This document shows, piece after piece, positions 29 through 61,000 of a stretch of DNA of 64,000 bases. Origin of the DNA: Candidatus Omnitrophota bacterium (GTDB lineage Bacteria > Omnitrophota > Gorgyraeia > Zapsychrales > Zapsychraceae); assembly GCA_028280285.1 (NCBI GenBank), contig JANQMA010000014.1, positions 907-64,906 on the forward strand, written 5' to 3'. The notes below the pieces were generated by a model, which was not told the origin of the DNA, ran no database searches, and saw only the letters and a list, made by a program, of their open reading frames with translations. The first letter of the stretch is position 1, and every line of letters begins with the position of its first letter. Made by a program: the position numbers and the translations under genes.

Positions 29-2647
29 ATGGATAAATTTTGGACAAATGGTCAAAATCCTTTGGATGCATGGAAGATGTTCAAACAAGATGTTGGTGGT
101 GATACTATAAATGTTATTTTTAGTGCTGATTTTACAAATGATATGGCAGAGTCTTTTAAGGCCTTTGAAGTATTGATAGAAAGCTGGAATGAAAATCCAG
201 ATAAATTTGTTGTAATGAATGATGTTTTAAAGAATTTTTCAGAAGATTTTTATAACCAGGTGGTATCTAGTGGCACAGGATACGAGGCATTTTTTGACAA
301 TTTTGGCGAGTATATAAAAGAAGACGATCTTCTGCAATCGAGTTTTATCTTATCCCAAATGCTTATGGATGCCGAACAGGTTTTTGAAAAATTCAATATA
401 GTAGATAGTGGTTTTGATAGTTTATCAACTTATTTAGGGGTTGCTAAGTATGTTGGGATATATGGAAAAGATGTCGTATTAAATGCTAATGATGCTTTTG
501 AAATACTTGATCGTGGTGAAGGGAGAGTTTCTGATCGTTATTTTGTTGCTAATGATAAGGGTGATATAGCAAGAATAACTAACGAAAAATATTTTGATGC
601 GGCTCAAAGGCATGGCGATAAGTTTGGTGTTCATGTTCAAAATGTATTGCGATTTTTTGAATCCGAAGAAGGAGCATATAGTAATGACAAGTTTGAGGAT
701 ACGGTTATAAATATAAGATTGCGTCAAACTATGCCAGAGCTTGTAGATTTATATGTAAAATTTGGTGCTAATGCTTTTCAGAGCGCTCTTAATGATAGTG
801 TACGTAGTAAGTTATTTCAAGGCCAAGGAAGTGAAGATTTTTTAAATCAATTTAAAAGTGAACTAGGAGATGAGGCTTCGCTTGGGCGTGAAAATGAAGT
901 CGACTCGGCAGCGATGGCGGAGCAGGATGATAATACCGCTCTAACAGATGAACAAATAAAACAGAGGTCTGATCCACGTTATACGAAAATTATTTTTGAA
1001 ATGCACAAAATTATTAAACATGCTGTTGGGGTTATGGGTGGAACTGAGAATGACGTTCAGCGTATTGCGGAAAAAGTACAGTTGGACATTATTAATCAAA
1101 GACGTTCTGGATATAACAAAGAAAGTGCGACAATATATTGGAATCCTAATAATGGATATGAAGGCCTTGGTTCTGAGGTTGGACATGCGATCCATTATAT
1201 TCTTGGGAGTGAAGATATACATAGGGGAATCGCTGAGGTTTACGATGCTTATGTCCATTATTTAGTTGCTAATAAGACAGCAATACAACAAAGGAGTGGT
1301 GTTTTTAGTGAGGAAAGAATTATTATTGGCAGGGCGTTGTTAAAGTTTATTGAGTCAGAGGAAAATCCATGGAAATGGAAAGATATAAATACATTGAATA
1401 ATGAAGAAGGTGTTCAGTTTTATCGAAAGTTTTATTTATTTTTGGTAGATGAATATGTTAATGTTCATCAGAGTGAAGATATTCTATATGATGCAAAAAG
1501 ATTGAAGGATTTCTTGGATAAAACTAAGAGGGATGTATATGATAAGTTTACTCATTTTATTGGTGTAGCTCTTTTAGAGAGGTTATTATCTTTTAATGAT
1601 AATGATATTTTAGCTGTCGGAAGGCAGTTATTTAAAGCATTAAATGATGAAAATATTGATTTCGAAACACCGAGCTCGTTTATAAGGGATGTTGTGTATG
1701 ACAGAACGGAAGACTTGGATATTATGGGTGATAAAAAACCTATAGATTTTCTGACAATAGGACAATTAGGCGATTTCGATTCATTGGCATTAGAAGAAGG
1801 TTTGTTAAAAGATGCAATGGATATTTCCTTTAGAGGCGAATCAGAAATTCATATGATGCCTCGGTATAATTTAGGGGGGCTGATTGAAGAAACTATTAAA
1901 ACACGTAGGAAAACAAAAATACAGGCAGTAGAATCAAGGGCTGAACTTAAACCCGAAAAAATATGGAGAGCGGTAGATCCGGTAAAGCTAGATCTGGTTG
2001 TATTAGCTGAAATGCCAACTCCGGTAAAGCTAGATGTGGTTGGATTAGATAGAATGCCAACTTATGATTTTGTTAATTTAAGGCCTCCTGAAGAAATAAG
2101 GAGATCAAATACAAAGTCTATTTATCGTTTTTTAATTTCAAATGATAAAATTATGCCCAGTGATCGATTCCGTCTGAGATTAAATTATTATAAATGGGTA
2201 GTTTCTGAAAAATTTCAAACTTGGCGGGATACTATATATTCTTTAGCCATTAAGCTTTCCCATCCAGAATATGAAGCATTGGAAGATCTGCCGGTGGAGG
2301 AATCAGATGATGAGAAAGACTCTGCTATGATAGTGAAGCAAGATCCGGCAAATCTCGGTGGGATTGATTTGAATCCAGCCAACTGGGAGCTTAAGACCAA
2401 GGGCATGCAAGGCTCGGATTGTTCGGAAGACGGGTTTGATGATTGTTTGAAGTTTGATATTCCTCAGGAGCAAATTGAGCAGTTACGTTTAAGCATTGAC
2501 GGGCTGGTGCCGGTGATTATTAACGTCCAGCCGGTGACCAATCTCCCACTATTTTTAGGTCTTGCTGATGAATTGCCGGATGAAAAGCAGCCGCAAAGGG
2601 AATCGGAGGAGGAGCTGGTCCTCGACGCTTTTATCAAAGAGTCTTAG
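29..2647 (+). CDS. Large hypothetical protein (872 aa) with no N-terminal signal peptide; carries the conserved C-terminal module shared with the two giant proteins
   Basis: Long ORF with an in-frame TAA at 26-28 just upstream, so the start lies inside the window. Its last ~90 aa (GGIDLNPANWELKTKG ... IDGLVPVIINVQPVTNLPLFLGLADELPDE plus an acidic tail) align with the C-termini of the ORFs ending at 31006 and 62247 and with the fragment at 3861-4069. No recognisable catalytic motif. Confidence 0.6.
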   Translation: MDKFWTNGQNPLDAWKMFKQDVGGDTINVIFSADFTNDMAESFKAFEVLIESWNENPDKFVVMNDVLKNFSEDFYNQVVSSGTGYEAFFDNFGEYIKEDDLLQSSFILSQMLMDAEQVFEKFNIVDSGFDSLSTYLGVAKYVGIYGKDVVLNANDAFEILDRGEGRVSDRYFVANDKGDIARITNEKYFDAAQRHGDKFGVHVQNVLRFFESEEGAYSNDKFEDTVINIRLRQTMPELVDLYVKFGANAFQSALNDSVRSKLFQGQGSEDFLNQFKSELGDEASLGRENEVDSAAMAEQDDNTALTDEQIKQRSDPRYTKIIFEMHKIIKHAVGVMGGTENDVQRIAEKVQLDIINQRRSGYNKESATIYWNPNNGYEGLGSEVGHAIHYILGSEDIHRGIAEVYDAYVHYLVANKTAIQQRSGVFSEERIIIGRALLKFIESEENPWKWKDINTLNNEEGVQFYRKFYLFLVDEYVNVHQSEDILYDAKRLKDFLDKTKRDVYDKFTHFIGVALLERLLSFNDNDILAVGRQLFKALNDENIDFETPSSFIRDVVYDRTEDLDIMGDKKPIDFLTIGQLGDFDSLALEEGLLKDAMDISFRGESEIHMMPRYNLGGLIEETIKTRRKTKIQAVESRAELKPEKIWRAVDPVKLDLVVLAEMPTPVKLDVVGLDRMPTYDFVNLRPPEEIRRSNTKSIYRFLISNDKIMPSDRFRLRLNYYKWVVSEKFQTWRDTIYSLAIKLSHPEYEALEDLPVEESDDEKDSAMIVKQDPANLGGIDLNPANWELKTKGMQGSDCSEDGFDDCLKFDIPQEQIEQLRLSIDGLVPVIINVQPVTNLPLFLGLADELPDEKQPQRESEEELVLDAFIKES
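1979..2062 (+). repeat. In-frame 42-bp tandem duplication (x2) inside the 872-aa ORF (PVKLDLVVLAEMPT / PVKLDVVGLDRMPT)
   Basis: ccggtaaagctagatctggttgtattagctgaaatgccaact is followed directly by ccggtaaagctagatgtggttggattagatagaatgccaact. Confidence 0.8.
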
Positions 2648-2654
2648 ATAATTT

Positions 2655-2707
2655 TTACATATTGATAATTATATTGACAATATGTAAATTTGTGTTATCT
2701 TTAAGAT
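2655..2707 (+). promoter_or_regulatory. Candidate sigma70-type promoter inside a perfect 10-bp inverted repeat, upstream of ATPase gene 1
   Basis: TTGACA at 2674-2679, a 16-nt spacer, then TATCTT at 2696-2701, about 7 nt before the ATG at 2708. Perfect inverted repeat ttacatattg (2655-2664) / caatatgtaa (2678-2687) overlaps the -35. Confidence 0.4.
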
Positions 2708-3868
2708 ATGATCGAGCGTCATTTAGCAAAACAAATTAAGCGATATGCCCGCCAATATCCGGTGATTACCCTTACCGGTCCACGCCAATCTGGTAAGACG
2801 ACACTGTGTCAAAAACTATTTAATAAACACACGTATTATTCTCTAGAAGACCTTGATATACGTCAGCAAGCCAAACAGGATCCGCGTGCATTCCTACAAC
2901 GGTGCAGTAGAAAGGGCGCTGTTCTCGATGAGATCCAACGTGTACCCGAGTTGACATCTTATATTCAGGGTATTGTTGATGAGCATAAGAAAAACGGGAT
3001 GTTTATTTTAACAGGAAGTCAAAACTTTCAAGTTATTGACACTGTTTCCCAATCACTCGCTGGGCGGACTGCTTTGGCCACGTTATTGCCGTTTAGTTTT
3101 TCTGAGGTTTACGATAAAAAGTGTCCTTCCTTAGATAAACTTCTTTTGATGGGGTTTTATCCGCGTATCCATGACAAGAAGCTTAAGCCTGCCGATATGC
3201 TTTCATTCTATATTAATACGTATTTGGAGCGGGATATGCGCGCACTTTTAAATGTAAAAGACTTAGGACAGTTCGAAGTTTTTTTAAAGTTATGTGCGGC
3301 CCGAACGGGACAGGTTTTGAATATGTCAAATCTGGCCAATGACTGCGGCGTTAATCATAATACTATAAAAAGTTGGCTTAGTGTTCTTGAAGCCAGCTAT
3401 ATTATTCATTTAGTTAGGCCGCATCATCGTAATTTTCGAAAACGGCTAATCAAATCACCAAAGCTTTATTTTATTGACGTTGGTTTAGCGGCCTATCTAT
3501 TGGATATCATAAAGGTTGAGCATATGGCCAATCATCCATTGCGCGGGGCGTTATTTGAAACATTTGTTGTTGCTGAAATTCTTAAAATGCGCTTCAATAA
3601 TGGGCAAAGATCTAATCTATATTATTTTCGGGATAATGTTGGTAATGAAGTTGATCTCATTCTTGATTACGGCACAGATGTCATTGCCATCGAGATCAAA
3701 TCTGGAAAGACAATGAATGCGAGCTTTTTAAAAGGCTTGCACTATTACAAAAAATTAAATAAAAGACATGTGAAACAGTCTATTCTTATCTATGGTGGAG
3801 AGGATGCGTATAAATATTTAGAATGTGATGTTATGGGTTATAAAAATATTGCTTCTGTTAAAATTTGA
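2708..3868 (+). CDS. AAA+ ATPase of the DUF4143 / COG1373 family (386 aa)
   Basis: N-terminal Walker A (TGPRQSGKTTL) and Walker B (VLDEIQRV) motifs; the C-terminal half matches the DUF4143 architecture of the COG1373 'predicted ATPase' family. Confidence 0.8.
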   Translation: MIERHLAKQIKRYARQYPVITLTGPRQSGKTTLCQKLFNKHTYYSLEDLDIRQQAKQDPRAFLQRCSRKGAVLDEIQRVPELTSYIQGIVDEHKKNGMFILTGSQNFQVIDTVSQSLAGRTALATLLPFSFSEVYDKKCPSLDKLLLMGFYPRIHDKKLKPADMLSFYINTYLERDMRALLNVKDLGQFEVFLKLCAARTGQVLNMSNLANDCGVNHNTIKSWLSVLEASYIIHLVRPHHRNFRKRLIKSPKLYFIDVGLAAYLLDIIKVEHMANHPLRGALFETFVVAEILKMRFNNGQRSNLYYFRDNVGNEVDLILDYGTDVIAIEIKSGKTMNASFLKGLHYYKKLNKRHVKQSILIYGGEDAYKYLECDVMGYKNIASVKI

Positions 3869-4069
3869 TATTCATAGGAGCAGATCGAGCAATTACGCTT
3901 AAGCATTGACGGGCTTGTGCCGGTGATTATTAATGTCCAGCCGATGACCAATCTTCCATTATTTTTAGGCCTGGCAGATGACTTGCCGGATGACGAAGAG
4001 CCGTTTGAAGCAGCGAAGGCCGAAATCGGTGATTTGTCGGCCGTGTGGCAAGAGCAAACAATTTATTGA
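3861..4069 (+). pseudogene. Orphan 3' fragment of the conserved C-terminal module (no start codon), about 90% nt-identical to 2447-2580
   Basis: After two stop codons, translates in frame to EQIEQLRLSIDGLVPVIINVQPMTNLPLFLGLADDLPDDEEPF...QTIY* (3878-4069). The DNA homology to the 3' end of the 29-2647 gene starts at about 3861 (aaatttgatattc), inside the last codons of ATPase gene 1. Confidence 0.6.
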
Positions 4070-4104
4070 CTTTTATGACCTTTTAGGTTATATTAGTCAA
4101 TATT
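4066..4104 (+). promoter_or_regulatory. Candidate sigma70 promoter for ATPase gene 2 (TTGACT-17-TATATT)
   Basis: TTGACT at 4066-4071 overlaps the fragment's stop codon; 17-nt spacer; TATATT at 4089-4094; ATG at 4105. A 7-bp inverted repeat attgact / agtcaat flanks it. Confidence 0.45.
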
Positions 4105-5310
4105 ATGATTAAACGATTTATTTCCAATAGCTTACAAGACGAAATTTCCCAACCGGAAATCAATATCCTTCTGGGTCCCCGGCAGGTTGGTAAAACAACG
4201 CTTCTCAAACAGCTTAAAGCGTATGCCAAAAGAGCGAGGCGTACGCCTTGTTTTTTTGATTTAGAGCAGCCGCAAATTCTTGCCCAATTCAATAGTTCTC
4301 CAACAGAAGTGATCGAAACTTTAAAAAGTGCCGGTGATGTTATTTTTATCGATGAATTTCAATACATTCAAAATGCCTCAAAAATATTTAAGGCTATTTA
4401 TGATGCGGGTAAGAATATTAAAATTATCTGTTCAGGTTCTTCTTCGATTGAAATTCATAAGCATCTTAAGGAAAGCCTTGCGGGGCGAAAGTTTCTTTTT
4501 CGTATTTATCCACTATCATTTGATGAAATACGCAAAAGATTAAAGGGTTCTTTGGAAGCGTATCTACTTTATGGAGGCCTTCCCGGACTTACGCATACAG
4601 ACGATTTTGCACGAAAACGTTTGATGCTTGATGAGTTATTAAGCAGCTACATATTAAAAGATATTAAATCACTGATCAAAGAAGAGAACATCCGCGCGTT
4701 CAATCATCTGCTTTATTTGCTTGCGCAAAATCAAGGATCAACGATCTCAATAACCGGTCTTGCTAATCAGGTTAACTTGAGTGTAAAAGCGGTCAGTCGT
4801 TATTTGGACATTCTCGAGCAAACGTATGTTAATTTTAGAGTACATAGTTATTCTAATAATCTTGGTAATGAATTAAAAAAATCATGTAAACATTACCTTT
4901 ATGACCTGGGTATACGTAATGCACTGCTTAAGGACTTTTCGTCGATAAAAAATCGTAAGGATAAAGGGGTTTTATATGAAAGTTTTGTCTTTCTTTCGTT
5001 GCTTGTGCGGCTGCAAACGAACATGGAGTTGAAATTTTGGCGCACAAAAGACGGTGATGAAGTTGATTTCATTCTTTTAGAGAATCGCATTCCTTTGCCT
5101 ATTGAGGTAAAAAGTAAGTTAAACAGCTCCTCTATACCAAAGGGATTAAAAAGATTTCTACTGCGTTACAGCGATGTGAAACACGCTTATGTTGTTAATG
5201 AAAACCTTACCGATCAAATTACTTACAAGTCCTGTACCATTGATTTTATAACTTTTGAAAATATCTCCTCCATCATTACGTCTCCGCTCATAAGAATGGA
5301 GGCTTCTTGA
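4105..5310 (+). CDS. AAA+ ATPase of the DUF4143 / COG1373 family (401 aa), divergent paralog of the 2708-3868 gene
   Basis: Walker A (LGPRQVGKTTL) and Walker B (FIDEFQYI); same domain order as the gene at 2708; about 30% identity over the N-terminal region. Confidence 0.8.
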   Translation: MIKRFISNSLQDEISQPEINILLGPRQVGKTTLLKQLKAYAKRARRTPCFFDLEQPQILAQFNSSPTEVIETLKSAGDVIFIDEFQYIQNASKIFKAIYDAGKNIKIICSGSSSIEIHKHLKESLAGRKFLFRIYPLSFDEIRKRLKGSLEAYLLYGGLPGLTHTDDFARKRLMLDELLSSYILKDIKSLIKEENIRAFNHLLYLLAQNQGSTISITGLANQVNLSVKAVSRYLDILEQTYVNFRVHSYSNNLGNELKKSCKHYLYDLGIRNALLKDFSSIKNRKDKGVLYESFVFLSLLVRLQTNMELKFWRTKDGDEVDFILLENRIPLPIEVKSKLNSSSIPKGLKRFLLRYSDVKHAYVVNENLTDQITYKSCTIDFITFENISSIITSPLIRMEAS

Positions 5311-23831: not shown

Positions 23832-23995
23832 GATATACACATAATAGTACTCCCCGAAGACATTTCAAGAATTAATTGATAAAAGATTGATGCTTTCGAG
23901 ACTTTGAATATCAGAACTATTTTTTGCATTAATAATAATATATGTAATACTTGCACTACTATTTTTTAAAGTTATATAAGGAATTAATATCTGTG

Positions 23996-26900
23996 ATGCG
24001 TACCCACTGGACATATAGGTTCATTGCATTGGTTGTAAGCTGTTTATTTACAGTTACTTCGATCAATCCCGTCTATGCTCAAGTCCAGCCTGTTTCGGAT
24101 ATTGTTCCTAAACTACTTCCTATCAATGGTTTAAATCAGCCCTTTGAACCTATGCTTATCAAAGGCCTTAAAGTTAATCAAACCAACCCCTTCGAGATGG
24201 AATTTATTGTCAGTAATAAGAAGAGTGGTCAGTTTAAGAAGGAGTCTGCTCGGCTTATAAAATACTTCCTTGCGGCCTTAACCATTCCTGGAAAAGACAT
24301 GTGGGTGAATTTGTCCCCTTACGAAAAAAACCGGATTATTCCCGAATCCTTTGGTCAGACTGAGATGGGAAGGGAGCTGTTAGTTCAGGATTATCTCTTA
24401 AAACAGGTCACAGCATCATTATTGCATCCGGATGGTGAATATGGACAAAAATTTTGGGCCAAGATAGCGACCCAAGCATCCCAGGATATACCGTTAGAAT
24501 TATTCAGCAAAGTCTGGATCATACCGGATAAAGCAGTGGTGTATGAAAATGGAGGGACAGCCTATGTGGTGGAGGCGAGTTTAAAGGTGATGTTGGAGCG
24601 TGACTATTTAGCGGTTCAAACAGATGCTAGATCCTCGATGCTTGATGCTAGTCAACAAGAACTAGTATCTAGTATCCAGCATCCAGCATCTAATAACCTA
24701 ATCCGTGAAATTATAATCCCCGCCATCACCCAGGAGGTAAATGAATCCAAAAACTTCGCCAAACTCCGTCAAATCTATCACAGTCTCATCCTTGCGACCT
24801 GGTACAAAAAAAAGATGCAAAACGGGATTCTGAACCAAATCTATGTCGATCAAAACAAAACCGATGGGTTCATCCATAATGACCCTGAAGCAGCCAACAA
24901 AATTTGGCGAGAATATACCGAAACATTTAAAGAAGGAGCGTACAATTCCATCAAAGAAGAATACGATCCGCAGACCCAGCAAATCATCCCAAAGAAATAT
25001 TTTTCTGGCGGAGCTGATATGGCTAGCCTTGAAACAGAATCAATAGATAATTTTGTCTTAAAAGATGATGAAAGAGATATGGCTGTTCTTAAGATTAAAT
25101 TAAACTTAGAAAAATCTGACTTCGCGAGCTTAGCTAAAAGATTTTGGGAAAGACTAAGTATAGGTGGATTTGATATAGAAACTATCAAAAAATTATCGAC
25201 AGCTGTGCTAGACCAAAAAATTGAAAACCCAAAACAGTACGTTAATTCACTTATTGATTTTAAAAACTCTGTTAAACAAGCAACTTTATTAGAAAATCTT
25301 ATTAAAAGCATCATCAGTGCCAAAGATCCCAAAGGTCTCATTGATAACTATAAAATTATCATCGATAAAGTACACTATGGCTTGGGGCGTGATTCACAAG
25401 AGGACCTGGATAAACACCTAAAAAAGATTAGCGAGCAAGAGTCCCCTGAAACAGTGGCCCAAGAGGTAGTAGATATCCACTCAAAACTAAAGGAATTAGG
25501 CCGTAAAGACTACTACTACGTTGCTAATGATATATTTAAATATATTTTAGTTTCGGATGATTACGCCAGAAACACTGCTCTTCTTAATAAATCCACACTA
25601 CTCACTCAAATCTTTAAACTCATCAATGAACTCAATACCGAATCAAAAGATTACTATGACCTTGATTCTGATATCAAAGATAGAATTGTCTTAAAGATAC
25701 TTAGTGATACTGACATTGAAGCGATAGCTGATAGCTTTATTGAGTTTTATGTTAACTTAAAATACTTCGATTTACTGGGAAGCCAAAAAAGTAACCTTCT
25801 AACAACCATCATAGAACATACAAAATATAAGCAATTAGTGGTTTGGATGAACGCTAATTCGGATACTATTAAAAAGAATGCAAAAGCTATTCCTAAACAT
25901 GAAAAAAGAATGCAATATCTACAACAGGTTATTGAATCCTATGATGGCAGCAATACCGTCATTGATACAGGTGAGTACGGACAACTTAAAGCCCTACTCA
26001 ACAGTACATCTATAGAAAAAGAGGATATTGAAGAATTACTAGAGACAGCATCTAACACAGATACTATATCTCTACTGTTAAGTTTTACAAAATATCTGAT
26101 TGATAAAAGTAAGTTTGAAGATGCTTTAGATAAAGGATTTAAAGATGATTTATATAGAAAGTTACTGAAAAGCATCATCAACGCCAAAGATCCCAAAGGT
26201 CTCATTGATAACTATAAAATTATCATCGATGAAGTACACTATGACTTAAAGCGTAAATCACAAGAGGACCTGGATAAACACCTAAAAAAGATTAGCGAGC
26301 AAGAGTCCCCTGAAACAGTGGCCCAAGAGGTAGTGGATATCCACTCAAAACTGAAGGAATTAGGCAATAAAGACTACTACTACGTTGCTAATGATATATT
26401 TAAATATATTTTAGAATCTGATAATTATTCTAAATCTATTCACAGCTTAACCAACAAAATAATATTACAATCATTGTTTGATCTTATAACTAATCATCAT
26501 GATAAAAAAATTAGTAATTTAGTTAAACTTCATCTGCCCAATACTACCGAAAATCTAGATTACACAAAAATACTAGTTCTAGAGCACTTAAAATGGAATA
26601 TCATTCATAAAGAATTACTCGAAATTTTAAATAATAGTGAAATACTTTCAGTCTTTATAAAGACTACAAATGAAATTATCAAAACATCAAAAATCAATCC
26701 AAAAAAGGAGATCAATATATTCTTGTCTGGACTGGATGAGTACTTAAAAGTGCAAGATATTTATAAACCCCTTTTAGAGTGGAATGAAGAGGATTGGAAT
26801 TATTTAGTTAACCGTCAAGAACTAGAAAATACATTAAAAAGTAAAAATTCATCATTTGATGAAAAAATGGATTTATTAAATTTCTACCATAGATTTCGTC

Positions 26901-29900
26901 CGGTAACCTCATACAGTTTTAAAACCATACGGTCATTATTTGAACAAGAAGCTCAAACAGATGAGCAAAAAATCGAAGTTGTTGAGTATGTGGTTGATTT
27001 AATTAGAGACAAAAACGATATGGAAAATAGTTTCCCTTATTTAAGAGGGTTGGTCCAAAAAATAGCCCGCAAGCGTCCCAAACAAGGGGAATCGACTATT
27101 GAATTAACTCCTGTTGAACGGTCAATCTTAGAAGCTTTTGACACTATCGAACAGCGTGATCATTTGATTGACGTGATGCTTAATCCACACATGTCTTTGG
27201 ATACTAAAGAGTCGCTTTTGTCGATAACAGCCGGAACTGTTCTTGATCCAGGTTTAACGACAATTTATCAACAATTGAAAACTAAAAGAGAAAAAAAGAC
27301 ATTTTTTGAATTATTCTTGCGTATTAAAATAGAATTTAATATCAAACCACCGGCACTTATACTCCAATACCTTTTAAATGGTCAATTGACTTTTGAAAAT
27401 TTAAAACAAGCAGTACCAAAAGTTCAAGGAAAGTCTCTTAAAAATCTGATAGAAAGCCCAGAGTTTTTAGAAAAAGACAATAATTTTTTTCTGCTCAGTT
27501 ACTTTATATTTAATCCCTCAAAATGGGAATACGCACATCAACAACGGTTTGATCAATTTAAAAGTATTATGGATATTGTCAAATCGCATATTCAAAATTC
27601 AAACTTTACCAAAGCTGCAGAAAAAGAATTATATGCATCGATCAGAAAACATTCATCGGAGGCAGAGGAAATAATTGCTGCGCTCAAAACCGGTGAAAGT
27701 ATTATTCCCAAAATTTCCGGGATGAAAGATGCGGATGGTCAATTTATTCCCCAGCCGGTGAATATAAGCTATGCAGAATCCGAGGCTTTAAAACAGCAAA
27801 GAACGGATTTTATGATGGAGTTTAATCTCCGCTTAATGAATATCTTAAAGGCCATGCATTATATAAAAAACATAACAGCTATTACTAACAGATACCAGGA
27901 TGAGTCTGTTGAATTGCGGTCTCAATTTAATGACCTTATTAAGTCAATCCAAGGGTTAGGGGGTTTTGATAATCAGCTTTTAATACAACTGCATGACATG
28001 TATTTAAACGCCTTAAAAATCCTTCCCAAATTTAAATTTGCAAATGCAACCGACCTTGAGCAAGAAATACAAAATCAAACACAAAAATTTCTCTTAGCAT
28101 TTAAGAAAAAAGCTTTAATGCCAGTATACGGTTTTAGACCATTACTTGAGCAATATAAAATTAAAAATAATGATAAGCTCATCCATTCCTTAAGTGAATA
28201 TGATATTGATCTGTTTTATAGGGCCTTTCAGAATAAATCACGATGGGGCAAGGCATATCAGGAGACGGATCATTTTGAAGGATTCATTAAACAAACATTT
28301 TCGCTTATTCCCGAACTTTTTTCTAAGAAGCATTTTGGCGACCTTTACACGGAACCGTTTCAAAAAGCCTGGGGAGAGATGGTTGGACATTTTTCGACTA
28401 CTGCAAAACAATATGAAAAAATAATACAAGATCAAGATGATGTTAATGGAAAGTCAAAATTAGTTTATGCATCTTTGTTATCTAAAAGTGACATTCTTCC
28501 GTATATTAGGTTTGGTGATGCCCCAGAGTGTTGTTTGAGTTCACATAAGGAGAGTGATCAGTTATCACAAGGTTATATAGAATATATGGCATCAGCTCTA
28601 CTTGATCAGGGGACGCATGTTATTCTCTTTCATACAGAAAATAAACCGGTTGGCTTTATTTTATGGCACTTCGCTAAAGACAAAAAAGACAAACTTGTGG
28701 CCGCCAGTGCGCGACTTTATTTACAGACCCAATACCGTTCCACAATATCTACACAGAATATAATGAAAAAAGCTGAAGAGATTATGGCTCACCTGGGAAT
28801 ACAAGAAATTCATGTATCCGATACTTCCTATCCAGGGGCCCAAGGTATTCCTGAGGGATATGAAGGAGCCCATAGTATTGAACTCAAACGCATTCAAACA
28901 ACCACAAGTGTTGAGACAACCACAACGGATTTGGACCGTTATTTATCTAATCATTTTCGTTCAATGAGCATGCATAGCAAACGTTTAGATAATGTGCTGA
29001 TAAACAAGAACGATGCTCTCCTTGAAACAGCGCCAGAACCACACGAAGATCCTCTGGAGTTGGAACTGGTAGAAAATAATCCGCTTAATGTCCAGGAAAT
29101 AATCGCTCAAGGTGATATTATTGAATCGAAAAGCGCTCAAGAATACCAAAATACGTTAAATTTGAAATTTACACAATTAGGTATTATAGAAGCATCGAAA
29201 TTTCGTGTATTTATTAGAGACGCTGATATTCAATTACACGTGCTGAGACCAAGGAGTTTCGATAAACCAACCTTTGGATTAAATGTGCCATTTACCTCTA
29301 AGAACAAAGATCTTTATGCCATAAGCCAGGAGGAAGATGGCAAAATCAATATTTATATCAGCGAATTTGCTTACCTATATGGCAGTCAGGCTCTTACACA
29401 AGAACTAATTGCCCAAGAGTTGTATAAAATTTTTGCTAAAAGTCAGTCTCTGGAAGCAACAAATGACATTGACTTAGAAAGAATGATTAATGCCGAGTAT
29501 GAGAATTATTTTAAAAGTTGGTTAGAGTCTTTGAGCGCAGTAGAGCTCTCAGATTTAGGATTAAAGGGACAAATAAAGCGTATGACGATGCGTTCTTTTG
29601 TTTTCGGCCGTTTAATGGGAGAGTTACATGTAGATCAACAAAGCAAACTTACACATTTTATGCGAGAACGCAGGGAGGTTTCTATAAAACTTAATCAGAG
29701 AAATACAGAGTCACAGGAAATAACAATGCCTATCCCTGAAGATGCCTGGGAACTGATGGCCGATATTATGATCAATAAAAAAAATCCAGGAGAATTTATT
29801 AATACTAAAATGCAAAAGGACCATTTATTGTATTGGCTGTTCGCTTCTTATGCACCAGTTGTTTTTAATTCTATAGCCAAACAAATAAAAAATTTAATCG

Positions 29901-31006
29901 ACAACAATCATTTAAATATATTAATGGTCTCGATTGGGAGAGAGAATCAAAGCACCATTGATCAATATCTACAAACTGGAGACGAAGAGAGATTACGAGA
30001 AATAATAAATTCCCGTATTTTTTCAGCAGATTCCAATGATTCCATTAAGGCAACTGATGGATGGCTTAATATCTTTAAATGGGTATATGATTATAATTTG
30101 ATGACTCGTGTTCCTATAGAGATCAAAGCTATTGCCGATAGCTATGATGGGCCCGAAGCTATATCTGAAGATCTAAAGCTTTCATCCGCACTAGCGGATA
30201 GCGACACTAATGTTGTACTGTTAGGATATTATGGGCTTCGCGAGTACTTAAATGATGAACAACAAGAAAATATATTGATTCATATTGATCCGGTAACCGG
30301 TTTTTTTAACAATACCTCAAACTCTTTAAGTTATGCGTTTAATTTTTTGCTTGCAAGCAGAGAAGATCTTATCTTAGAGATTAAAGACAGTAACTTTGAG
30401 AATGAATCAATCGTATTTTTGGAGAATTCAGAATGGCAACAGTTGACGTTTAAAGCTGGTGAGATAGAAGGAATAGCATATTCTGACGAAGAAAAACAAA
30501 GTATCGTATCCTATTATCAACGCATTGCACCACTTATTGATAAATTTAATAAGTACCATTCTGTTTACGTAAGCATCCCTGGAGAAGATGGAGGGGATGA
30601 AGAACAATCACCAAAACTAACCCCGGAAACGCCCGAATATTCCCCTGTAGGTACTCCTACTGGTGCTGTTACCGATGCAGGGGTGCGTAAAGGAGGGATT
30701 GATTTTAATCCGGCAGGAATGGAGCTGGAAATCAAGACACAAGATACAGGGCACACGACACAGGTAAACTGTGTTGATGAGCCTGATCATGCTAACTGCA
30801 TTCAATTGCATTTTACTCCTGAACAAATCAAAGACATGCGTCAAAATATTACCGGCATTACTCCTGTCATCATCGATATCAGGCCGATGATTAATCTCCC
30901 TTTATTTCTAGGCTTTAATGATTCTGAAAGGCCTGCTGATGATACGGAAACGGTGGAGAAAGAAAACCGAGACTTGTTTGCAAGACTGGAAGAAATAGCT
31001 ATCTAA
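23996..31006 (+). CDS. Giant secreted protein (about 2336 aa): signal peptide, conserved N-terminal domain, variable repeat-containing middle, conserved C-terminal module
   Basis: Probable start is the ATG at 23996 (MRTHW...); the track's 23951 start is a TTG codon. Signal peptide ...SINPVYA|QV. The N-terminal domain is homologous to that of the 58012 ORF (WVNLSPYEKNRIIP...GQTEMGRELLVQDYLLKQ). The C-terminus carries GGIDFNP ... ITPVIIDIRPMINLPLFLGF plus an acidic tail. Confidence 0.7.
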   Translation: MRTHWTYRFIALVVSCLFTVTSINPVYAQVQPVSDIVPKLLPINGLNQPFEPMLIKGLKVNQTNPFEMEFIVSNKKSGQFKKESARLIKYFLAALTIPGKDMWVNLSPYEKNRIIPESFGQTEMGRELLVQDYLLKQVTASLLHPDGEYGQKFWAKIATQASQDIPLELFSKVWIIPDKAVVYENGGTAYVVEASLKVMLERDYLAVQTDARSSMLDASQQELVSSIQHPASNNLIREIIIPAITQEVNESKNFAKLRQIYHSLILATWYKKKMQNGILNQIYVDQNKTDGFIHNDPEAANKIWREYTETFKEGAYNSIKEEYDPQTQQIIPKKYFSGGADMASLETESIDNFVLKDDERDMAVLKIKLNLEKSDFASLAKRFWERLSIGGFDIETIKKLSTAVLDQKIENPKQYVNSLIDFKNSVKQATLLENLIKSIISAKDPKGLIDNYKIIIDKVHYGLGRDSQEDLDKHLKKISEQESPETVAQEVVDIHSKLKELGRKDYYYVANDIFKYILVSDDYARNTALLNKSTLLTQIFKLINELNTESKDYYDLDSDIKDRIVLKILSDTDIEAIADSFIEFYVNLKYFDLLGSQKSNLLTTIIEHTKYKQLVVWMNANSDTIKKNAKAIPKHEKRMQYLQQVIESYDGSNTVIDTGEYGQLKALLNSTSIEKEDIEELLETASNTDTISLLLSFTKYLIDKSKFEDALDKGFKDDLYRKLLKSIINAKDPKGLIDNYKIIIDEVHYDLKRKSQEDLDKHLKKISEQESPETVAQEVVDIHSKLKELGNKDYYYVANDIFKYILESDNYSKSIHSLTNKIILQSLFDLITNHHDKKISNLVKLHLPNTTENLDYTKILVLEHLKWNIIHKELLEILNNSEILSVFIKTTNEIIKTSKINPKKEINIFLSGLDEYLKVQDIYKPLLEWNEEDWNYLVNRQELENTLKSKNSSFDEKMDLLNFYHRFRPVTSYSFKTIRSLFEQEAQTDEQKIEVVEYVVDLIRDKNDMENSFPYLRGLVQKIARKRPKQGESTIELTPVERSILEAFDTIEQRDHLIDVMLNPHMSLDTKESLLSITAGTVLDPGLTTIYQQLKTKREKKTFFELFLRIKIEFNIKPPALILQYLLNGQLTFENLKQAVPKVQGKSLKNLIESPEFLEKDNNFFLLSYFIFNPSKWEYAHQQRFDQFKSIMDIVKSHIQNSNFTKAAEKELYASIRKHSSEAEEIIAALKTGESIIPKISGMKDADGQFIPQPVNISYAESEALKQQRTDFMMEFNLRLMNILKAMHYIKNITAITNRYQDESVELRSQFNDLIKSIQGLGGFDNQLLIQLHDMYLNALKILPKFKFANATDLEQEIQNQTQKFLLAFKKKALMPVYGFRPLLEQYKIKNNDKLIHSLSEYDIDLFYRAFQNKSRWGKAYQETDHFEGFIKQTFSLIPELFSKKHFGDLYTEPFQKAWGEMVGHFSTTAKQYEKIIQDQDDVNGKSKLVYASLLSKSDILPYIRFGDAPECCLSSHKESDQLSQGYIEYMASALLDQGTHVILFHTENKPVGFILWHFAKDKKDKLVAASARLYLQTQYRSTISTQNIMKKAEEIMAHLGIQEIHVSDTSYPGAQGIPEGYEGAHSIELKRIQTTTSVETTTTDLDRYLSNHFRSMSMHSKRLDNVLINKNDALLETAPEPHEDPLELELVENNPLNVQEIIAQGDIIESKSAQEYQNTLNLKFTQLGIIEASKFRVFIRDADIQLHVLRPRSFDKPTFGLNVPFTSKNKDLYAISQEEDGKINIYISEFAYLYGSQALTQELIAQELYKIFAKSQSLEATNDIDLERMINAEYENYFKSWLESLSAVELSDLGLKGQIKRMTMRSFVFGRLMGELHVDQQSKLTHFMRERREVSIKLNQRNTESQEITMPIPEDAWELMADIMINKKNPGEFINTKMQKDHLLYWLFASYAPVVFNSIAKQIKNLIDNNHLNILMVSIGRENQSTIDQYLQTGDEERLREIINSRIFSADSNDSIKATDGWLNIFKWVYDYNLMTRVPIEIKAIADSYDGPEAISEDLKLSSALADSDTNVVLLGYYGLREYLNDEQQENILIHIDPVTGFFNNTSNSLSYAFNFLLASREDLILEIKDSNFENESIVFLENSEWQQLTFKAGEIEGIAYSDEEKQSIVSYYQRIAPLIDKFNKYHSVYVSIPGEDGGDEEQSPKLTPETPEYSPVGTPTGAVTDAGVRKGGIDFNPAGMELEIKTQDTGHTTQVNCVDEPDHANCIQLHFTPEQIKDMRQNITGITPVIIDIRPMINLPLFLGFNDSERPADDTETVEKENRDLFARLEEIAI
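25301..25553 (+). repeat. Internal repeat copy 1 (about 250 bp) of the giant gene; about 95% identical to copy 2
   Basis: LIKSIISAKDPKGLIDNYKIIIDKVHYGLGRDSQEDLDKHLKKISEQESPETVAQEVVDIHSKLKELGRKDYYYVANDIFKYIL. Confidence 0.85.
26165..26411 (+). repeat. Internal repeat copy 2, about 860 bp downstream of copy 1
   Basis: LLKSIINAKDPKGLIDNYKIIIDEVHYDLKRKSQEDLDKHLKKISEQESPETVAQEVVDIHSKLKELGNKDYYYVANDIFKYIL. The identical antisense pseudo-ORFs (MRPLGSLALMM) in the ORF track reflect the same duplication. Confidence 0.85.
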
Positions 31007-44360: not shown

Positions 44361-44404
44361 ATTTGACAAAACCACATGGGTGTGGATAATAAACAGAAAA
44401 ATTT
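44361..44404 (+). promoter_or_regulatory. Candidate zur-znu operon promoter (TTGACA-17-ATAATA) with an overlapping AT palindrome (candidate Zur box)
   Basis: TTGACA at 44361-44366, spacer aaaccacatgggtgtgg, then ATAATA; the downstream agaaaaattttct near-palindrome overlaps the predicted transcription start. Confidence 0.4.
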
Positions 44405-44415
44405 TCTATTTACCT

Positions 44416-53615: not shown

Positions 53616-53630
53616 AATTTTTTAACTATA

Positions 53631-53652: not shown

Positions 53653-53669
53653 AAGGAAGCGAGGAACCT

Positions 53670-54648: not shown

Positions 54649-54666
54649 AGTAAGGATAAACAAACA

Positions 54667-58011: not shown

Positions 58012-61000
58012 ATGGTTTGGACATTTAAACGCACTACGCAACGATTAACACATCGTATTTTTTCAATTGTTATTGCCGTTGCATTTTTTTCAAGCTCTGT
58101 TTTACCTCAGGGCGCTCAAGCACAAGTGATTCCAACGCCAGCGCCAATGCCGGCGATTGGTAGCATGGTGCCTGTCAGTCCAGGGTACACACCGGCCATT
58201 ATTCGCGGATTAACCCTTTTTCCAGAGAATCCCCTACAATTTTCATTTTACATCGATTTAGGTGACAGTGGCTTAACGGCTGAAGAGCCAGCCCTTAAAG
58301 AAACATCTCAGCGTTTAATCAACTATTTCATGGCCGGATTAACAATCCCAAAAGAAGAATTCTGGGTGAACTTATCGCCGTATGAACAAAATCGTATTAT
58401 CCCTGATTCGCTGGGTCAAACAGCGATGGGACGCGATATGCTGGCCCAAGATTACCTACTCAAACAATTAACATCCTCACTCATGTACCCGGAAGATGAG
58501 CTGGGAAGCAAATTCTGGACACGCGTCAAAGAACGGGCCATGGAGCTGTATGGCACAGATGACATCCCGACCAATGTATTGAACAAAGTGTGGATTGCGC
58601 CAGAAAGTGCGGAAATTTACATTCACAACCAAGAAGTGTTTTTAACTAATAGTCGCTTAAAGGTAATGTTAGAAAAAGATTTATTTGCACAACGTCAAGC
58701 AGTGGGGGCGGATGTCACCCATATGGAGACATCTGGCACATTGGTGAGCTCTGATGAAGTGGCAGATGTTGTCCGTGAGGTAATATTACCAGAGATCGAA
58801 TATGAAGTAAATCATGGTCAAAATTTTGCGGTATTACGTCAGATTTTTAATTCGGTCATTTTGGCCTCATGGTACAAAGACAATTTAAAAGAGACCTTAT
58901 TAGGAAAGGTGTACGCTGATCAAAATAAGGTCACAGGCATCGATGACAATGACCAGGCAACGAATCAAGCGATTTATAAACAGTATGTTGAGGCATTTAA
59001 AGCAGGAGCCTATGACTATATTAAGGAAGAGTACAATCCAGCAACACAAGCTATGACAGCAAAAAAATATTTCTCTGGTGGGGTAGGAAATTTAGAAGAT
59101 TTAGCGATACTTATTAATGGAGAAGTGCATACACCGAATACAGATACCGAGACATTTTATCGTAGAGTCAGTGGATTTTCACCTCAAGTTGTCCGCGTTG
59201 GTGGAGAGAATGTTGAGGCGACAAAAGAAACGATTGAAGACTTACAAGCATATTTAGATGAACAAAGTACAAAAATTAAATCTGTGGAAAATAAGACTGC
59301 AGCGATGGATGCGCACGATGACGATGCGGCAGTTGTTATGGATGTATTAGCGGACAAAGATGCAGCGAGTTTGACGATACAACAATTAATAGATGTATTA
59401 CCACGAAAAGTGTTTAAGAAAAAGTTTAGAGATAGCTTGCTTCAAAAAATACCGTCACAAGAAGAAGTAGATACTATGTCTAAAGAAGATCTTCAGGCTA
59501 TCGAAAAGGATATCATTAATGCTATTGAACAGAGATTACGTGAGTATTTATGGGTGTCTACAAAAAGCATTCAAGATGATATGGGAATGTCTAATCAAAA
59601 ACGGGAAAGTTTTTGGTATGGAAGGGATGATTATATTTCCGTTAAGAATGAAGAGATCCAAGGCTTATTTTTACAGGTTTCTAGCAATTTGAGCAGGTTT
59701 GTAAGGGGGAAAGAGCTCGAGCTTCGTAGTCCTTTTGATAAATATGGGGATCGCCATCATTCCTTCAAACGCTTAGATTATGAAGTTATGAATAATGCAG
59801 CCCAGGCGATTGTAGAATGGGTGACGGAACAAAAATCTAATGTTGCTAGATTTTTAGAAAAACAAGAGGAAGAGGTGCGACAACAAGAGACCGCATTACG
59901 TGCAAGGTTGGGGGGGCAACACAGCCAAAAAGGTAAGACTATTCAAGATTTAATAAATACATTACCACGAAAAGTGCTTAATAAAAGTTTTAGAGATGGC
60001 TTACTTCAAAGAATACCATCAGCAGGAAAAGTAGATACTATGTCCGCAAAAGATCTTCTGGAAATTGAAAAAGGTATTATTGATGATATTGGGCAGAAGT
60101 TAAACGGTTATTTGTGGTCGTCTGCAGATAGCATGCAAAATGACATGGGAAGGTCAAATCAAAAACCGGAAAGTTTTTGGTATGGAAGAAGTGCAAGGGA
60201 TATTAGCGTTAAGTATAAAGATGGTGAATATATTTATTTGAGACTCTATGAGTATTTTCAAAAAGGCAAATTTCAGTTTCATGATGGGCACTATACTTAT
60301 TATTCCTTTAGTGGTTTAAGTTATGAAGTTATGAATAATGCGGCTCAGGCGATTGTAGAATGGGTAGTCCGACAAAATGACAATATTGCTAGGTCTTTAG
60401 AAAAACAAGAAGAAGTTGCGGGTCAACAAGAAGCGGCATTACGTGTAAGATTAGGTACGGAAAGCGATACAGCGGCGATTGAGGAGGTAAAGGAACTACA
60501 AAATAAGGAAGAAGCGAAAGATTCTGCCGTACTAGAAGATAAGGATATGGCGGCGCTTCTGTCGAACGAAAAATCACCGGATAATGATAGTGCAGCTTTT
60601 GGCAACCCTTTAATTCCTATGATACCCGAAATCGAAGATGTTGGAAGGCTTCCTGCTTATATCTTTTCGCGAAAACAAATTGAACTAATGACAGAACATT
60701 TACTAAGTACCATGGATGCAAATTCTGAAGCGACAGTAAAAATCAAAAAAACTATTGCCAGAATAATTGTAGCAGAAGCTCAAAAATACAGTGAGCGCCC
60801 TTTCTCTGGGTATTATGCGTCTTGGTACGCGTTTCGGATGGAAAAGGATAATGGAATTACACCAGCCGTTTATTTTGCAAAAGAGGTTATGGAGAATTTA
60901 ATTGCAAAAGGCTTTGAACATGATGATCTTATCAATTTTCATACAAGCTATTTACAAAAAAATATTTTTAAAACACACCGGAAAAAGATTATCGAAATTC

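What the first reader, a model, noticed from the sequence alone, without database searches (positions are those of the whole stretch)
2380..2647. Conserved ~85-aa C-terminal module shared by three large proteins and one orphan fragment: candidate novel sorting/secretion signal
Three otherwise unrelated or only partly related proteins end with the same tripartite tail. The ORFs end at 2647, 31006 and 62247; the fragment sits at 3861-4069. The tail has three parts: (i) a GGID[LF]NP motif followed by a short amphipathic segment ending in IK. (ii) A 25-40-aa linker, with a Cys pair in two of the copies. (iii) A Pro/hydrophobic core, [IMR]x[IQ]xx[DT]G[LFI][VT]PVII[ND][IV]xP[VM]xNLPLFLG[LF], followed by a D/E-rich tail. 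The motif-spacer-hydrophobic-charged layout resembles sortase/exosortase/rhombosortase-type C-terminal sorting signals. The differences are an acidic rather than basic terminus and a Pro-rich hydrophobic stretch. Two carriers have Sec signal peptides and one does not, so the module is not just part of one protein family's fold. I do not recognise this motif from any described sorting system.
Basis: partly seen in the sequence, partly recalled or inferred. Interest (0 to 1): 0.8.

Follow-up and report, generated by a model that had tools for sequence, protein, structure and literature searches.

The report
Conserved tail of Omnitrophota modular exported proteins
The shared tail is real and apparently undescribed, but it is not a free-standing sorting tag: it is the C-terminal end of one huge family of exported proteins found only in the candidate phylum Omnitrophota, where it is almost always paired with an equally unknown N-terminal domain around very variable cargo.

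Summary
Three ORFs (ends 2647, 31006, 62247) and a fragment (3878-4066) carry the same about 58-aa module: GGID, then a fixed 43-44 aa conserved spacer, then GFxPVIINxxPxxNLxxFLG.

- **Size of the family:** a profile search of 1.84 billion proteins found 6151 cluster representatives. The module was at the extreme C-terminus in all 150 listed, and in 186 of 187 six-frame hits in 2 Mb of related DNA.
- **Distribution and novelty:** all named sources are Omnitrophota or MAGs with doubtful labels. Pfam, NCBIfam, PDB and the literature library gave nothing.
- **Independence from one family is not supported:** ORF1's "missing signal peptide" is a window-edge artefact. A contig from the same sample extends ORF1 into the N-terminal domain shared by ORF2 and ORF3. 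108 of 113 N-domain proteins end in the tail, and 103 of 114 tail proteins have the N-domain and a Sec signal peptide.
- **Not sortase-like:** the core is too weakly hydrophobic, there is no basic end, and the acidic end is not conserved. AlphaFold gives no fold for the tail alone.
- **The orphan fragment** is a recombination scar beside an inserted defence-candidate ATPase.

Best reading (moderate confidence): the tail is a partner-bound recognition element. With the N-domain it forms a two-ended handle for envelope targeting of variable cargo.

The parts
2357..2563 (+). Tail module copy 1, from GGIDLNP to NLPLFLGL. It carries an insertion of about 16 aa with a Cys pair. It is the C-terminus of ORF1.
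   Evidence: HMM E 4e-23
2564..2647 (+). Variable acidic extension after module 1, plus the stop codon
2..2647 (+). ORF1, a carrier cut by the left edge of the window. Contig L160 from the same sample extends it to at least 1107 aa, and the extension begins inside the shared N-terminal domain.
3878..4066 (+). Orphan fragment: the C-terminal half of the module plus an extension, with an in-frame TAG just upstream at 3875. It is a remnant, not a gene of its own.
2466..2593 (+). Direct repeat arm 1 (tail-coding DNA). It pairs with 3876-4003 (128 nt, 87% identity). The two arms bracket the gene at 2708-3868.
3876..4003 (+). Direct repeat arm 2
2708..3868 (+). AAA_14 + DUF4143 ATPase that matches the PADLOC defence candidate PDC-S01. 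It lies between the two tail repeats.
4105..5310 (+). Second AAA_14 + DUF4143 ATPase (PDC-S01), 28% identical to the first, just after the orphan fragment
23951..31006 (+). ORF2 carrier (2351 aa): signal peptide, N-terminal domain, unrelated cargo with an internal duplication, and the tail
24011..25192 (+). Signal peptide end and conserved N-terminal domain of ORF2 (aa 21-414). This stretch is 39% identical to ORF3 aa 13-406, E 3e-82.
30692..30916 (+). Tail module copy 2, from GGIDFNP to NLPLFLGF, with the Cys-pair insertion
30917..31006 (+). Variable acidic extension after module 2, plus the stop codon
58012..62247 (+). ORF3 carrier (1411 aa): signal peptide, N-terminal domain, cargo with an internal duplication, and the tail
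58012..58125 (+). Sec-type signal peptide of ORF3 (MVWTFKRTTQRLTHRIFSIVIAVAFFSSSVLPQGAQAQ)
   Evidence: hydrophobicity heuristic, not a dedicated predictor
58123..59211 (+). Conserved N-terminal domain of ORF3. It has no Pfam or PDB match. It retrieved 601 homologues; nearly all sources that give a name call them Omnitrophota/Omnitrophica, and three partial sequences carry archaeal or 'hydrothermal vent metagenome' labels.
61981..62151 (+). Tail module copy 3, from GGIDLNP to NLPLFLGL. This is the commonest 57-58 aa form, with no insertion.
   Evidence: HMM E 2e-30
62152..62247 (+). Variable acidic extension after module 3, plus the stop codon. It overlaps the 3' end of the convergent gene 62225-63991 by 23 nt.

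Best explanation
The tail is the C-terminal hallmark of one very large superfamily of modular, Sec-exported proteins restricted to Omnitrophota. The module is about 58 aa: GGID, a conserved 43-44 aa segment, then GFxPVIINxxPxxNLxxFLG.

The architecture is: signal peptide, a conserved N-terminal domain of about 330 aa, cargo of 100 to more than 3000 aa, the tail, and 0-54 variable residues. The cargo is often unrelated between members and often enzyme-like. All three window carriers have this architecture.

The tail is not a membrane anchor and does not fold on its own. I think it most likely works as a recognition element that a protein partner in the cell envelope binds in an extended, strand-like conformation after Sec export. 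Together with the N-terminal domain it would form a two-ended handle that targets the variable cargo for secretion across, or attachment to, the outer envelope. The invariant Gly-Gly at its N-terminal boundary is a candidate processing site.

Shown: position, conservation, selection on the protein, coupling to the N-domain and signal peptide, and restriction to one phylum.
Inferred: binding to a partner, the targeting role, and cleavage at Gly-Gly.
For: - **Extreme C-terminal position.** All 150 best of 6151 hits in the exhaustive search have the match at the C-terminus. So do 97/97 and 89/90 six-frame HMM hits in 1.26 Mb and 0.75 Mb of related loci. No more than 54 residues ever follow the module.
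- **Signal peptides.** A Sec-type N-terminus is present in 60/65 and 41/55 carriers whose N-terminus is complete.
- **Unrelated cargo between conserved ends.** ORF2 and ORF3 share only the N-domain and the tail. Cargo in other members includes PGK, TIM, PGI, glycogen synthase, UDPGP, HAD, ankyrin and HEAT domains. The smallest members are about 530 aa, with only about 100 aa between N-domain and tail.
- **Information content.** The module is very conserved and its internal spacing is fixed. Synonymous sites are saturated.
- **No fold alone.** Two AlphaFold runs gave pLDDT 64 and 69 and pTM 0.23 and 0.27. The core was locally confident but extended.
- **Sharp N-terminal boundary.** Conservation begins exactly at an invariant GG.
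- **Distribution.** Named sources are almost all Omnitrophota. Carriers occur several per genome and in tandem arrays.
- **Fast turnover.** Orphans, frameshifted copies and a partial internal copy show the turnover typical of surface or effector families.
Against: - **Coupling to the N-domain.** Generic sorting tags sit on proteins that share nothing but a signal peptide. Here 108/113 N-domain proteins carry the tail and 103/114 tail proteins carry the N-domain. The tail could therefore simply be part of that family's own structure.
- **No partner identified.** No processing enzyme or pore was found. No non-carrier gene recurs next to carriers (best 8 of 76 loci), and the window holds only housekeeping genes.
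- **Exceptions.** About 8 tail proteins seem to lack both the signal peptide and the N-domain.
- **Odd cargo.** Much of the cargo is ATP- or NDP-sugar-dependent enzyme domains, which would be idle in a periplasm.
- **Free C-terminus not read.** The residues after the tail vary in length, so the free C-terminus itself is not what is recognised.
- **Weak structural evidence.** A low-confidence AlphaFold model is only weak evidence for folding on binding.
- **Crude signal-peptide calls.** They rest on a hydrophobicity heuristic.
Confidence: 0.4

Rival explanations
1. Self-docking module. The tail's hydrophobic strands complete or bind the conserved N-terminal domain. In cis, the two ends would form one folded unit with the cargo as a giant insertion. 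In trans, carriers would join head to tail into chains or a surface lattice. No separate sorting machinery would be needed.
For: - N-domain and tail co-occur almost without exception.
- Minimal members have only about 100 aa between the two.
- The tail alone has no fold, yet its core is locally confident and extended, and the core strand is hydrophobic on both faces.
- The internal spacing is fixed, which suggests a defined structure.
- N-domain and tail divergence are correlated (Spearman 0.52, Mantel 0 of 300 permutations), although shared descent would also give this.
Against: - Not tested directly.
- A few tail proteins lack the N-domain.
- The strict terminal position and the sharp GG boundary are not required by this model.
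- The correlation is expected from co-inheritance alone.
Confidence: 0.3
2. The tail is a sortase/exosortase/rhombosortase-type tripartite signal: a motif, a membrane-spanning hydrophobic stretch and a charged tail. A dedicated transpeptidase would cleave it.
For: - A conserved small-residue motif (GG) sits at the N-terminal boundary, and a hydrophobic stretch lies near the end.
- Carriers have signal peptides.
- There are many copies per genome, and the module is restricted to one phylum.
Against: - 43-44 conserved residues separate the motif from the hydrophobic stretch.
- The 21-aa core has mean Kyte-Doolittle hydropathy of 1.57 in one sub-type and 1.05 in the other. Prolines break it, and in the commonest sub-type it contains D/N, R/K and Q.
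- The end is acidic or neutral, never basic.
- The tails match no NCBIfam or Pfam model at all, not even at E <= 10.
- No sortase-like gene lies in the window or recurs near carriers.
Confidence: 0.05
3. Type 1 secretion-like C-terminal signal. An ABC exporter would thread the protein out C-terminus first, and a C39 peptidase domain would cut at Gly-Gly.
For: - The position is C-terminal, the end is acidic in one sub-type, and GG is invariant.
- One locus (L030) has a C39-ABC exporter between two carriers.
- C39 domains have been reported in giant Omnitrophota proteins (10.1101/2023.11.21.568195).
Against: - Carriers have canonical Sec signal peptides.
- No RTX (HemolysinCabind) domains were found in carriers.
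- The C39-ABC gene is next to carriers in one of 156 loci, or possibly two.
- Known C39 substrates carry the GG at the end of an N-terminal leader, not at the start of a C-terminal tail.
Confidence: 0.07
4. The similarity is at the DNA level. It would be a repeat, a mobile-element end or a recombination site that happens to be translated at gene 3' ends, with no function as protein.
For: - Tail-coding DNA forms direct repeats around inserted defence and toxin-antitoxin genes.
- A partial internal copy looks like a recombination scar.
Against: - Identical residues are encoded by different codons in 9/13 to 10/14 positions between the three full window tails, and nucleotide identity between those tails is only 60-67%.
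- Tail 1 and the orphan differ by about 11 synonymous against 2 non-synonymous changes.
- All 187 hits were in frame within long ORFs except for a few decayed remnants, and 186 of them lay at the ORF's C-terminus.
- Amino-acid conservation holds across thousands of proteins that are otherwise less than 50% identical.
Confidence: 0.03

Closest known systems
Type 9 secretion system C-terminal domain (CTD; TIGR04183/TIGR04131, Pfam Por_Secre_tail) of Bacteroidota
   Same: A conserved module of 60-100 aa at the extreme C-terminus of Sec-exported proteins with very diverse cargo. Many copies per genome, and restricted to one phylum-level group.
   Different: - No sequence match.
- AlphaFold predicts no beta-sandwich.
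- The module is followed by 0-54 variable residues.
- Carriers also share a conserved N-terminal domain of about 330 aa, which type 9 cargo proteins do not.
- Whether Omnitrophota have type 9 machinery was not tested.
Sortase-class tripartite sorting signals (LPXTG, PEP-CTERM, GlyGly-CTERM, PGF-CTERM)
   Same: A short invariant motif of small residues at the N-terminal boundary of a C-terminal signal on signal-peptide proteins. Families are expanded within a lineage.
   Different: A conserved 43-44 aa spacer, a core that is too weakly hydrophobic and is broken by prolines, and no basic C-terminal cluster. No model match.
MARTX and LapA-type type 1 secretion substrates
   Same: Conserved N- and C-terminal regions bracket variable or exchangeable central domains, and the C-terminal region is needed for export.
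   Different: Those proteins lack Sec signal peptides and carry RTX repeats. The carriers here have signal peptides and no RTX repeats.
Dockerin modules of cellulosomal enzymes
   Same: A module of about 60-70 aa at the C-terminus of many different secreted proteins. It is a docking device rather than a catalytic part.
   Different: No match to any Pfam model, dockerin included, and no duplicated calcium-binding loops. No cohesin-like receptor has been identified. The module does not fold alone in AlphaFold.
TpsA/FhaB two-partner secretion proteins
   Same: A signal peptide followed by a conserved N-terminal domain, with a conserved proline-rich extreme C-terminal region. The two ends have distinct roles in export.
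   Different: No sequence similarity. No TpsB-like gene lies next to carriers. The cargo here is variable and often enzyme-like.

Membership tests
Omnitrophota signal peptide / N-domain / cargo / tail superfamily (defined here; no public model) | Tail module (GGID ... GFxPVIINxxPxxNLxxFLG) at the extreme C-terminus | tested here: met
   ORF1, ORF2 and ORF3 of the window
Omnitrophota signal peptide / N-domain / cargo / tail superfamily (defined here; no public model) | Conserved N-terminal domain of about 330 aa directly after a Sec-type signal peptide | tested here: met
   - ORF2 versus ORF3: E 3e-82.
- ORF1 only through contig L160, which starts in the last 50 residues of the domain (E 1.7e-15). 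Its signal peptide is not seen.
- 108/113 N-domain ORFs end in the tail.
T9SS C-terminal domain | Match to the curated CTD models (expected in NCBIfam and Pfam) | tested here: not met
   No hit, even at E <= 10
T9SS C-terminal domain | Beta-sandwich domain that folds on its own | tested here: not met
   AlphaFold pTM 0.23 and 0.27, with no strands packed. Foldseek against the PDB gave 0 matches. A low-confidence model is weak evidence.
T9SS C-terminal domain | Extreme C-terminal position on signal-peptide-bearing cargo | tested here: met
T9SS C-terminal domain | T9SS machinery genes (PorU/PorV/SprA and others) in the same genomes | not tested
   Whole genomes could not be fetched. No such gene was seen in the window.
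Sortase-class signals (LPXTG / PEP-CTERM / GlyGly-CTERM / PGF-CTERM) | Signature motif followed directly by a transmembrane helix of about 20 aa | tested here: not met
   A 43-44 aa conserved spacer. Core Kyte-Doolittle hydropathy is 1.57 or 1.05, and the core is broken by prolines.
Sortase-class signals (LPXTG / PEP-CTERM / GlyGly-CTERM / PGF-CTERM) | Cluster of basic residues at the C-terminal end | tested here: not met
   Median net charge after the module is -3 in one sub-type and 0 in the other
Sortase-class signals (LPXTG / PEP-CTERM / GlyGly-CTERM / PGF-CTERM) | Cognate sortase, exosortase or rhombosortase gene in the genome | not tested
   None in the window or among recurrent neighbours. 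Genome-wide co-occurrence could not be computed.
Type 1 secretion C-terminal signal / RTX proteins | No N-terminal Sec signal peptide | tested here: not met
   60/65 and 41/55 complete carriers have a Sec-like N-terminus
Type 1 secretion C-terminal signal / RTX proteins | RTX nonapeptide repeats upstream of the signal | tested here: not met
   No HemolysinCabind hit in the window carriers or in 111 other carriers scanned
Type 1 secretion C-terminal signal / RTX proteins | Linked ABC exporter, membrane fusion protein and TolC genes | tested here: not met
   A C39-ABC exporter lies near carriers only in L030, and possibly L061
Dockerin | Match to the Pfam dockerin model, with duplicated Ca-binding loops | tested here: not met
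   No Pfam hit

The most novel reading that the evidence does not exclude
The tail and the N-terminal domain are the two ends of a previously undescribed, phylum-wide delivery scaffold. Omnitrophota would use it to export, display or inject into prey cells hundreds of different cargo domains, including cytoplasmic-type enzymes such as PGK, TIM, PGI and glycogen synthase. Export would run through a dedicated envelope machine that reads a new class of C-terminal signal, with processing at the invariant Gly-Gly.
Probability: 0.25. Interest if true: 0.85.

Novelty: new variant of a known kind. Interest (0 to 1): 0.65.

Why it matters
Omnitrophota are uncultured, ultra-small and probably predatory or parasitic bacteria. 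They are known for giant and modular proteins, and how these are exported is an open question.

This work defines two conserved, unannotated modules: a C-terminal tail and an N-terminal domain. Together they bracket the variable part of thousands of these proteins. That gives a concrete handle for several tasks:
- An HMM to count carriers per genome.
- Two defined ends to test for cleavage, docking or secretion.
- A list of cargo domains, including glycolytic and glycogen enzymes, that are unexpectedly placed behind Sec signal peptides.

If the handle proves to be a targeting device, it would be a new sorting or secretion route outside the known systems. If it proves to be a self-docking unit, it would explain how Omnitrophota build large modular surface or envelope assemblies.

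Tried and rejected
- **Pfam and NCBIfam.** Scans of the full carriers and of the tails, down to E <= 10, gave only noise.
- **PDB.** A profile search with the tail and a sequence search with the N-domain gave 0 hits. Foldseek of the tail model against the PDB gave 0 matches.
- **AlphaFold on the tail alone.** Two runs, with alignments of 56 and 123 sequences, gave no compact fold. In hindsight one job should have gone to a minimal full-length member to test tail/N-domain docking.
- **Search for a conserved neighbour gene.** In 76 genome loci the best non-carrier cluster was in 8 loci (TPR proteins). ABC ATPases and prepilin-like genes were in 6-7 loci. The C39-peptidase ABC exporter looked promising because it cuts at Gly-Gly, but it is adjacent to carriers only in L030. 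Rejected as the partner.
- **Viral contigs.** No tail was found.
- **Carriers without a signal peptide.** I first read the database hits (TIM, HAD, PyrG fragment, SLOG) as evidence for cytoplasmic carriers. Analysis of loci with verified upstream stops showed that most such cases are truncated or frameshift-split genes.
- **Stop-codon recoding.** In-frame stops upstream of some tail ORFs were checked. TAA, TGA and TAG all occur, so recoding is rejected.
- **Full-length ORF1.** A protein search with ORF1's first 500 residues returned nothing. ORF1 was solved instead through the contig of its neighbouring gene.
- **Literature.** Three Omnitrophota papers and a motif-string search make no mention of the tail or the N-domain.
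Full report
**1. The observation**

A six-frame motif scan finds GGID[LF]N at nt 2357, 30692 and 61981. It finds PVII[ND][IV]...NLPLFLG at 2510-2560, 30863-30913 and 62098-62148, plus a fourth copy of the second half at 3920-3970, and nothing else in 64 kb.

The fragment is in frame from 3878 to 4066, because a TAG stop lies at 3875. A profile built from these four sequences alone found 235 database proteins, with E-values down to 8e-22. The similarity is therefore not chance.

Conservation is on the protein. In pairwise comparisons of the three full window tails, 9/13, 9/16 and 10/14 identical core residues are encoded by different codons, and nucleotide identity is 60-67%. Tail 1 and the fragment differ mostly at synonymous sites.

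**2. Size and distribution of the family**

I searched 1.84 billion cluster representatives exhaustively with a 56-sequence profile (alignment A3). This gave 6151 proteins at E <= 1e-3 and 3660 at E <= 1e-10. In all 150 listed, which range from 72 to 2914 aa, the match ends at or near the C-terminus.

A scan of 185,579 species genomes gave 297 confirmed sites. The 76 loci kept are all titled Candidatus Omnitrophota or Omnitrophica, Candidatus Zapsychrus, an unclassified 'bacterium', or carry MAG labels 'uncultured Planctomycetales' or 'Planctomycetales bacterium'. I treat those last labels as doubtful and could not check them. A metagenome scan gave 366 more sites. Viral contigs gave none.

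In six-frame HMM searches of these loci, 97 of 97 hits (1.26 Mb) and 89 of 90 hits (0.75 Mb) lie at the C-terminal end of an ORF. No more than 54 residues follow the module. The one internal hit (L118) is only the N-terminal half of a module, followed by new sequence and a full tail. I read it as a recombination scar.

**3. Anatomy of the module**

The conserved unit runs from an invariant GG to LG, about 58 aa. Its pattern is GGID(L/F)(N/T)P..(L/M)(N/D)LQ(I/T)(K/Q)..G.(I/V)(P/K)(L/F)(P/H)L..P..(L/I)..(L/M)(Q)N..GF.PVIIN(I/V).P..(N/D)L(P/R).(F/L)LG.

- The distance from GGID to PVII is 43-44 aa in 376 of 411 modules.
- The Cys pair in window tails 1 and 2 is a rare insertion, present in 3 of 411 modules. 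Seven modules carry in-frame REP-like 'RFRGND' insertions at the same loop.
- There are two sub-types. One has an NLP.LLG core, a median of 32 following residues and a net charge of -3. The window tails resemble this one. The other has (N/D)L(R/K).FLG and a median of 10 following residues that are neutral.
- Mean Kyte-Doolittle hydropathy of the 21-aa core is 1.57 in the first sub-type and 1.05 in the second.

A conserved spacer, a weakly hydrophobic core broken by prolines, and the lack of a basic end all argue against a sortase, exosortase or rhombosortase type of signal.

**4. The tail is one end of a single architecture**

ORF2 and ORF3 share a Sec-type signal peptide and about 400 N-terminal residues (39% identity, E 3e-82), plus the tail. 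Their middles are unrelated.

Inside the window, ORF1 shares only the tail with the other two. However, its reading frame is open to nt 2 of the window. A contig from the same sample, found through the neighbouring gene, extends ORF1 to at least 1107 aa. Its first residues, AQKIYDQYVESFKTGVYDYIKEEYDPINQQIIPRKYFSGG, match the end of the same N-terminal domain (E 1.7e-15).

Across the fetched loci the coupling is strong:
- Of 113 ORFs with the N-domain whose C-terminus is visible, 108 end in the tail. The other five are frameshift-split genes or fragments.
- Of 114 tail ORFs of at least 150 aa with a stop codon upstream, 103 have the N-domain.
- About eight lack it. Most of these sit at contig ends or follow another open frame.

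Signal-peptide-like N-termini occur in 60/65 and 41/55 complete carriers. This rests on a hydrophobicity heuristic.

The N-domain has no Pfam or PDB match. Of the 601 homologues it retrieved, nearly all sources that give a name call them Omnitrophota or Omnitrophica; three partial sequences carry archaeal or 'hydrothermal vent metagenome' labels. Minimal members of about 530-630 aa have only 100-200 aa between N-domain and tail. Carriers often stand in tandem, up to three in a row.

**5. Cargo**

Most middles have no Pfam domain. Those that do carry PGK, TIM, PGI, glycogen synthase (GT5), UDP-glucose pyrophosphorylase, PEP-utilising enzyme, HAD, GT1/GT2, HATPase_c, ankyrin and HEAT domains. 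This overlaps the domain catalogue reported for long Omnitrophota proteins (bioRxiv 10.64898/2026.06.07.730766).

That preprint, the giant-gene preprint (10.1101/2023.11.21.568195) and Seymour et al. (PMC10066038) do not mention the tail or the N-domain. Motif strings are absent from the paper library.

**6. The orphan fragment**

The fragment is one arm of a 128-nt direct repeat, 2466-2593 versus 3876-4003, at 87% identity. The repeat brackets an AAA_14/DUF4143 ATPase gene. That gene and its neighbour at 4105-5310 match the PADLOC defence candidate PDC-S01, with E 4e-104 and 5e-95.

In another contig of the same sample, a carrier's tail is followed by hicB, hicA and a DUF2442 gene, then an orphan tail, then vapBC.

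Other 'stand-alone' tails are decayed copies:
- One is frameshifted off a 2176-aa carrier (L041).
- One is a remnant after an unrelated gene (L072).
- One is a frameshifted copy next to a transposase fragment (L134).

The fragment is a scar of insertion or recombination in tail-coding DNA. It is not a fourth carrier.

**7. Structure and partners**

AlphaFold on tail 1 gave pLDDT 64 and pTM 0.23. On tail 3 it gave pLDDT 69 and pTM 0.27. Neither run produced a compact fold. The GFxPVIIN...FLG stretch was locally confident (pLDDT about 81-86) but extended. Foldseek and PDB sequence searches found nothing.

No non-carrier gene recurs beside carriers. TPR proteins occur in 8 of 76 loci, and ABC ATPases and prepilin-like genes in 6-7. 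A C39-peptidase ABC exporter lies between two carriers only in L030. The window itself holds respiratory, amino-acid, metal-uptake and tRNA-synthetase genes.

Within a genome, paralogous tails are only 31-69% identical, so any shared reader must rely on the invariant positions.

**8. Interpretation**

What is shown: the tail is a strongly selected, strictly C-terminal module restricted to one phylum. It is one end of a signal peptide / N-domain / cargo / tail architecture.

What is inferred: how it works. My ranking is as follows.
- **Partner-bound recognition element (0.40).** The tail acts with the N-domain as a two-ended handle for envelope targeting after Sec export, with GG as a possible processing site.
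- **Self-docking (0.30).** The tail docks into the N-domain in cis or in trans. This explains the near-obligate coupling at least as well.
- **Type 1 secretion-like (0.07), sortase-like (0.05) and DNA-level (0.03).** Features tested here contradict each of these.

**9. Comparison with known systems and verdict**

The tail works most like a type 9 secretion CTD or a dockerin: a C-terminal module on many exported proteins. It is a member of neither family and of no sortase-class signal. Model matches, fold and anatomy were tested and not met.

It is a real family and, as far as these libraries show, an undescribed one. I rate it a new variant of a known kind, interest 0.65.

Noticed in passing
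window 2466-5310; also L079 1-1812: Defence-type and toxin-antitoxin genes sit directly downstream of carrier genes, between direct repeats of tail-coding DNA. In the window these are two PDC-S01-like DUF4143 ATPases. In L079 they are hicBA, a DUF2442 gene and vapBC. The 3' end of carrier genes looks like an insertion hot spot that duplicates part of the tail.
   Followed up: partly
L003-L152 carriers (alignment A8); P0158, P0273, P0329, P0146: Proteins with Sec signal peptides carry cytoplasmic-type enzymes as their middle part. Examples are phosphoglycerate kinase, triosephosphate isomerase, phosphoglucose isomerase, glycogen synthase, UDP-glucose pyrophosphorylase and PEP-utilising enzyme. 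Where these act is unexplained. It could be the periplasm, the cell surface or a prey cell.
   Followed up: partly
window 25268-25660 vs 26132-26524 (ORF2); 59374-59886 vs 59917-60429 (ORF3): The cargo regions of ORF2 and ORF3 each contain an internal duplication. In ORF2 it is 76% identical over 113 aa, and in ORF3 54% over 175 aa.
   Followed up: partly
window 62225-63991 (- strand): A 588-aa protein with many N-terminal membrane spans and C-terminal TPR repeats converges on ORF3 and overlaps its last 23 nt. It looks like a GT-C-type glycosyltransferase, but only the TPR part hit Pfam. TPR proteins are the commonest non-carrier neighbours of carriers, in 8 of 76 loci.
   Followed up: partly
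modules in P0018, P0035, P0036, P0042, P0229 and others: Seven of 411 tail modules carry an in-frame insertion reading ...MDSRFRGND... in the loop after LQTK. It looks like a translated REP-type palindromic repeat. This is the same loop that holds the Cys-pair insertion in window tails 1 and 2.
   Followed up: no
L118 6320-10192: One carrier holds an internal half-module (GGIDLTPAYMNLQTK...) 504 residues before its real tail. This suggests a fusion by recombination inside the module.
   Followed up: partly
window 44380-47234 and 53172-57845: There are two similar operons of Fur, ZnuA, an ABC ATPase and ABC-3 permease in the window. The second lies just upstream of ORF3 and has two permease genes.
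   Followed up: no
L047 56-10249: A tail-bearing ORF is the last piece of a long run of same-strand ORFs joined by 'SSPV' linkers and interrupted by masked N runs. It is probably one very long carrier broken by assembly gaps or frameshifts.
   Followed up: no
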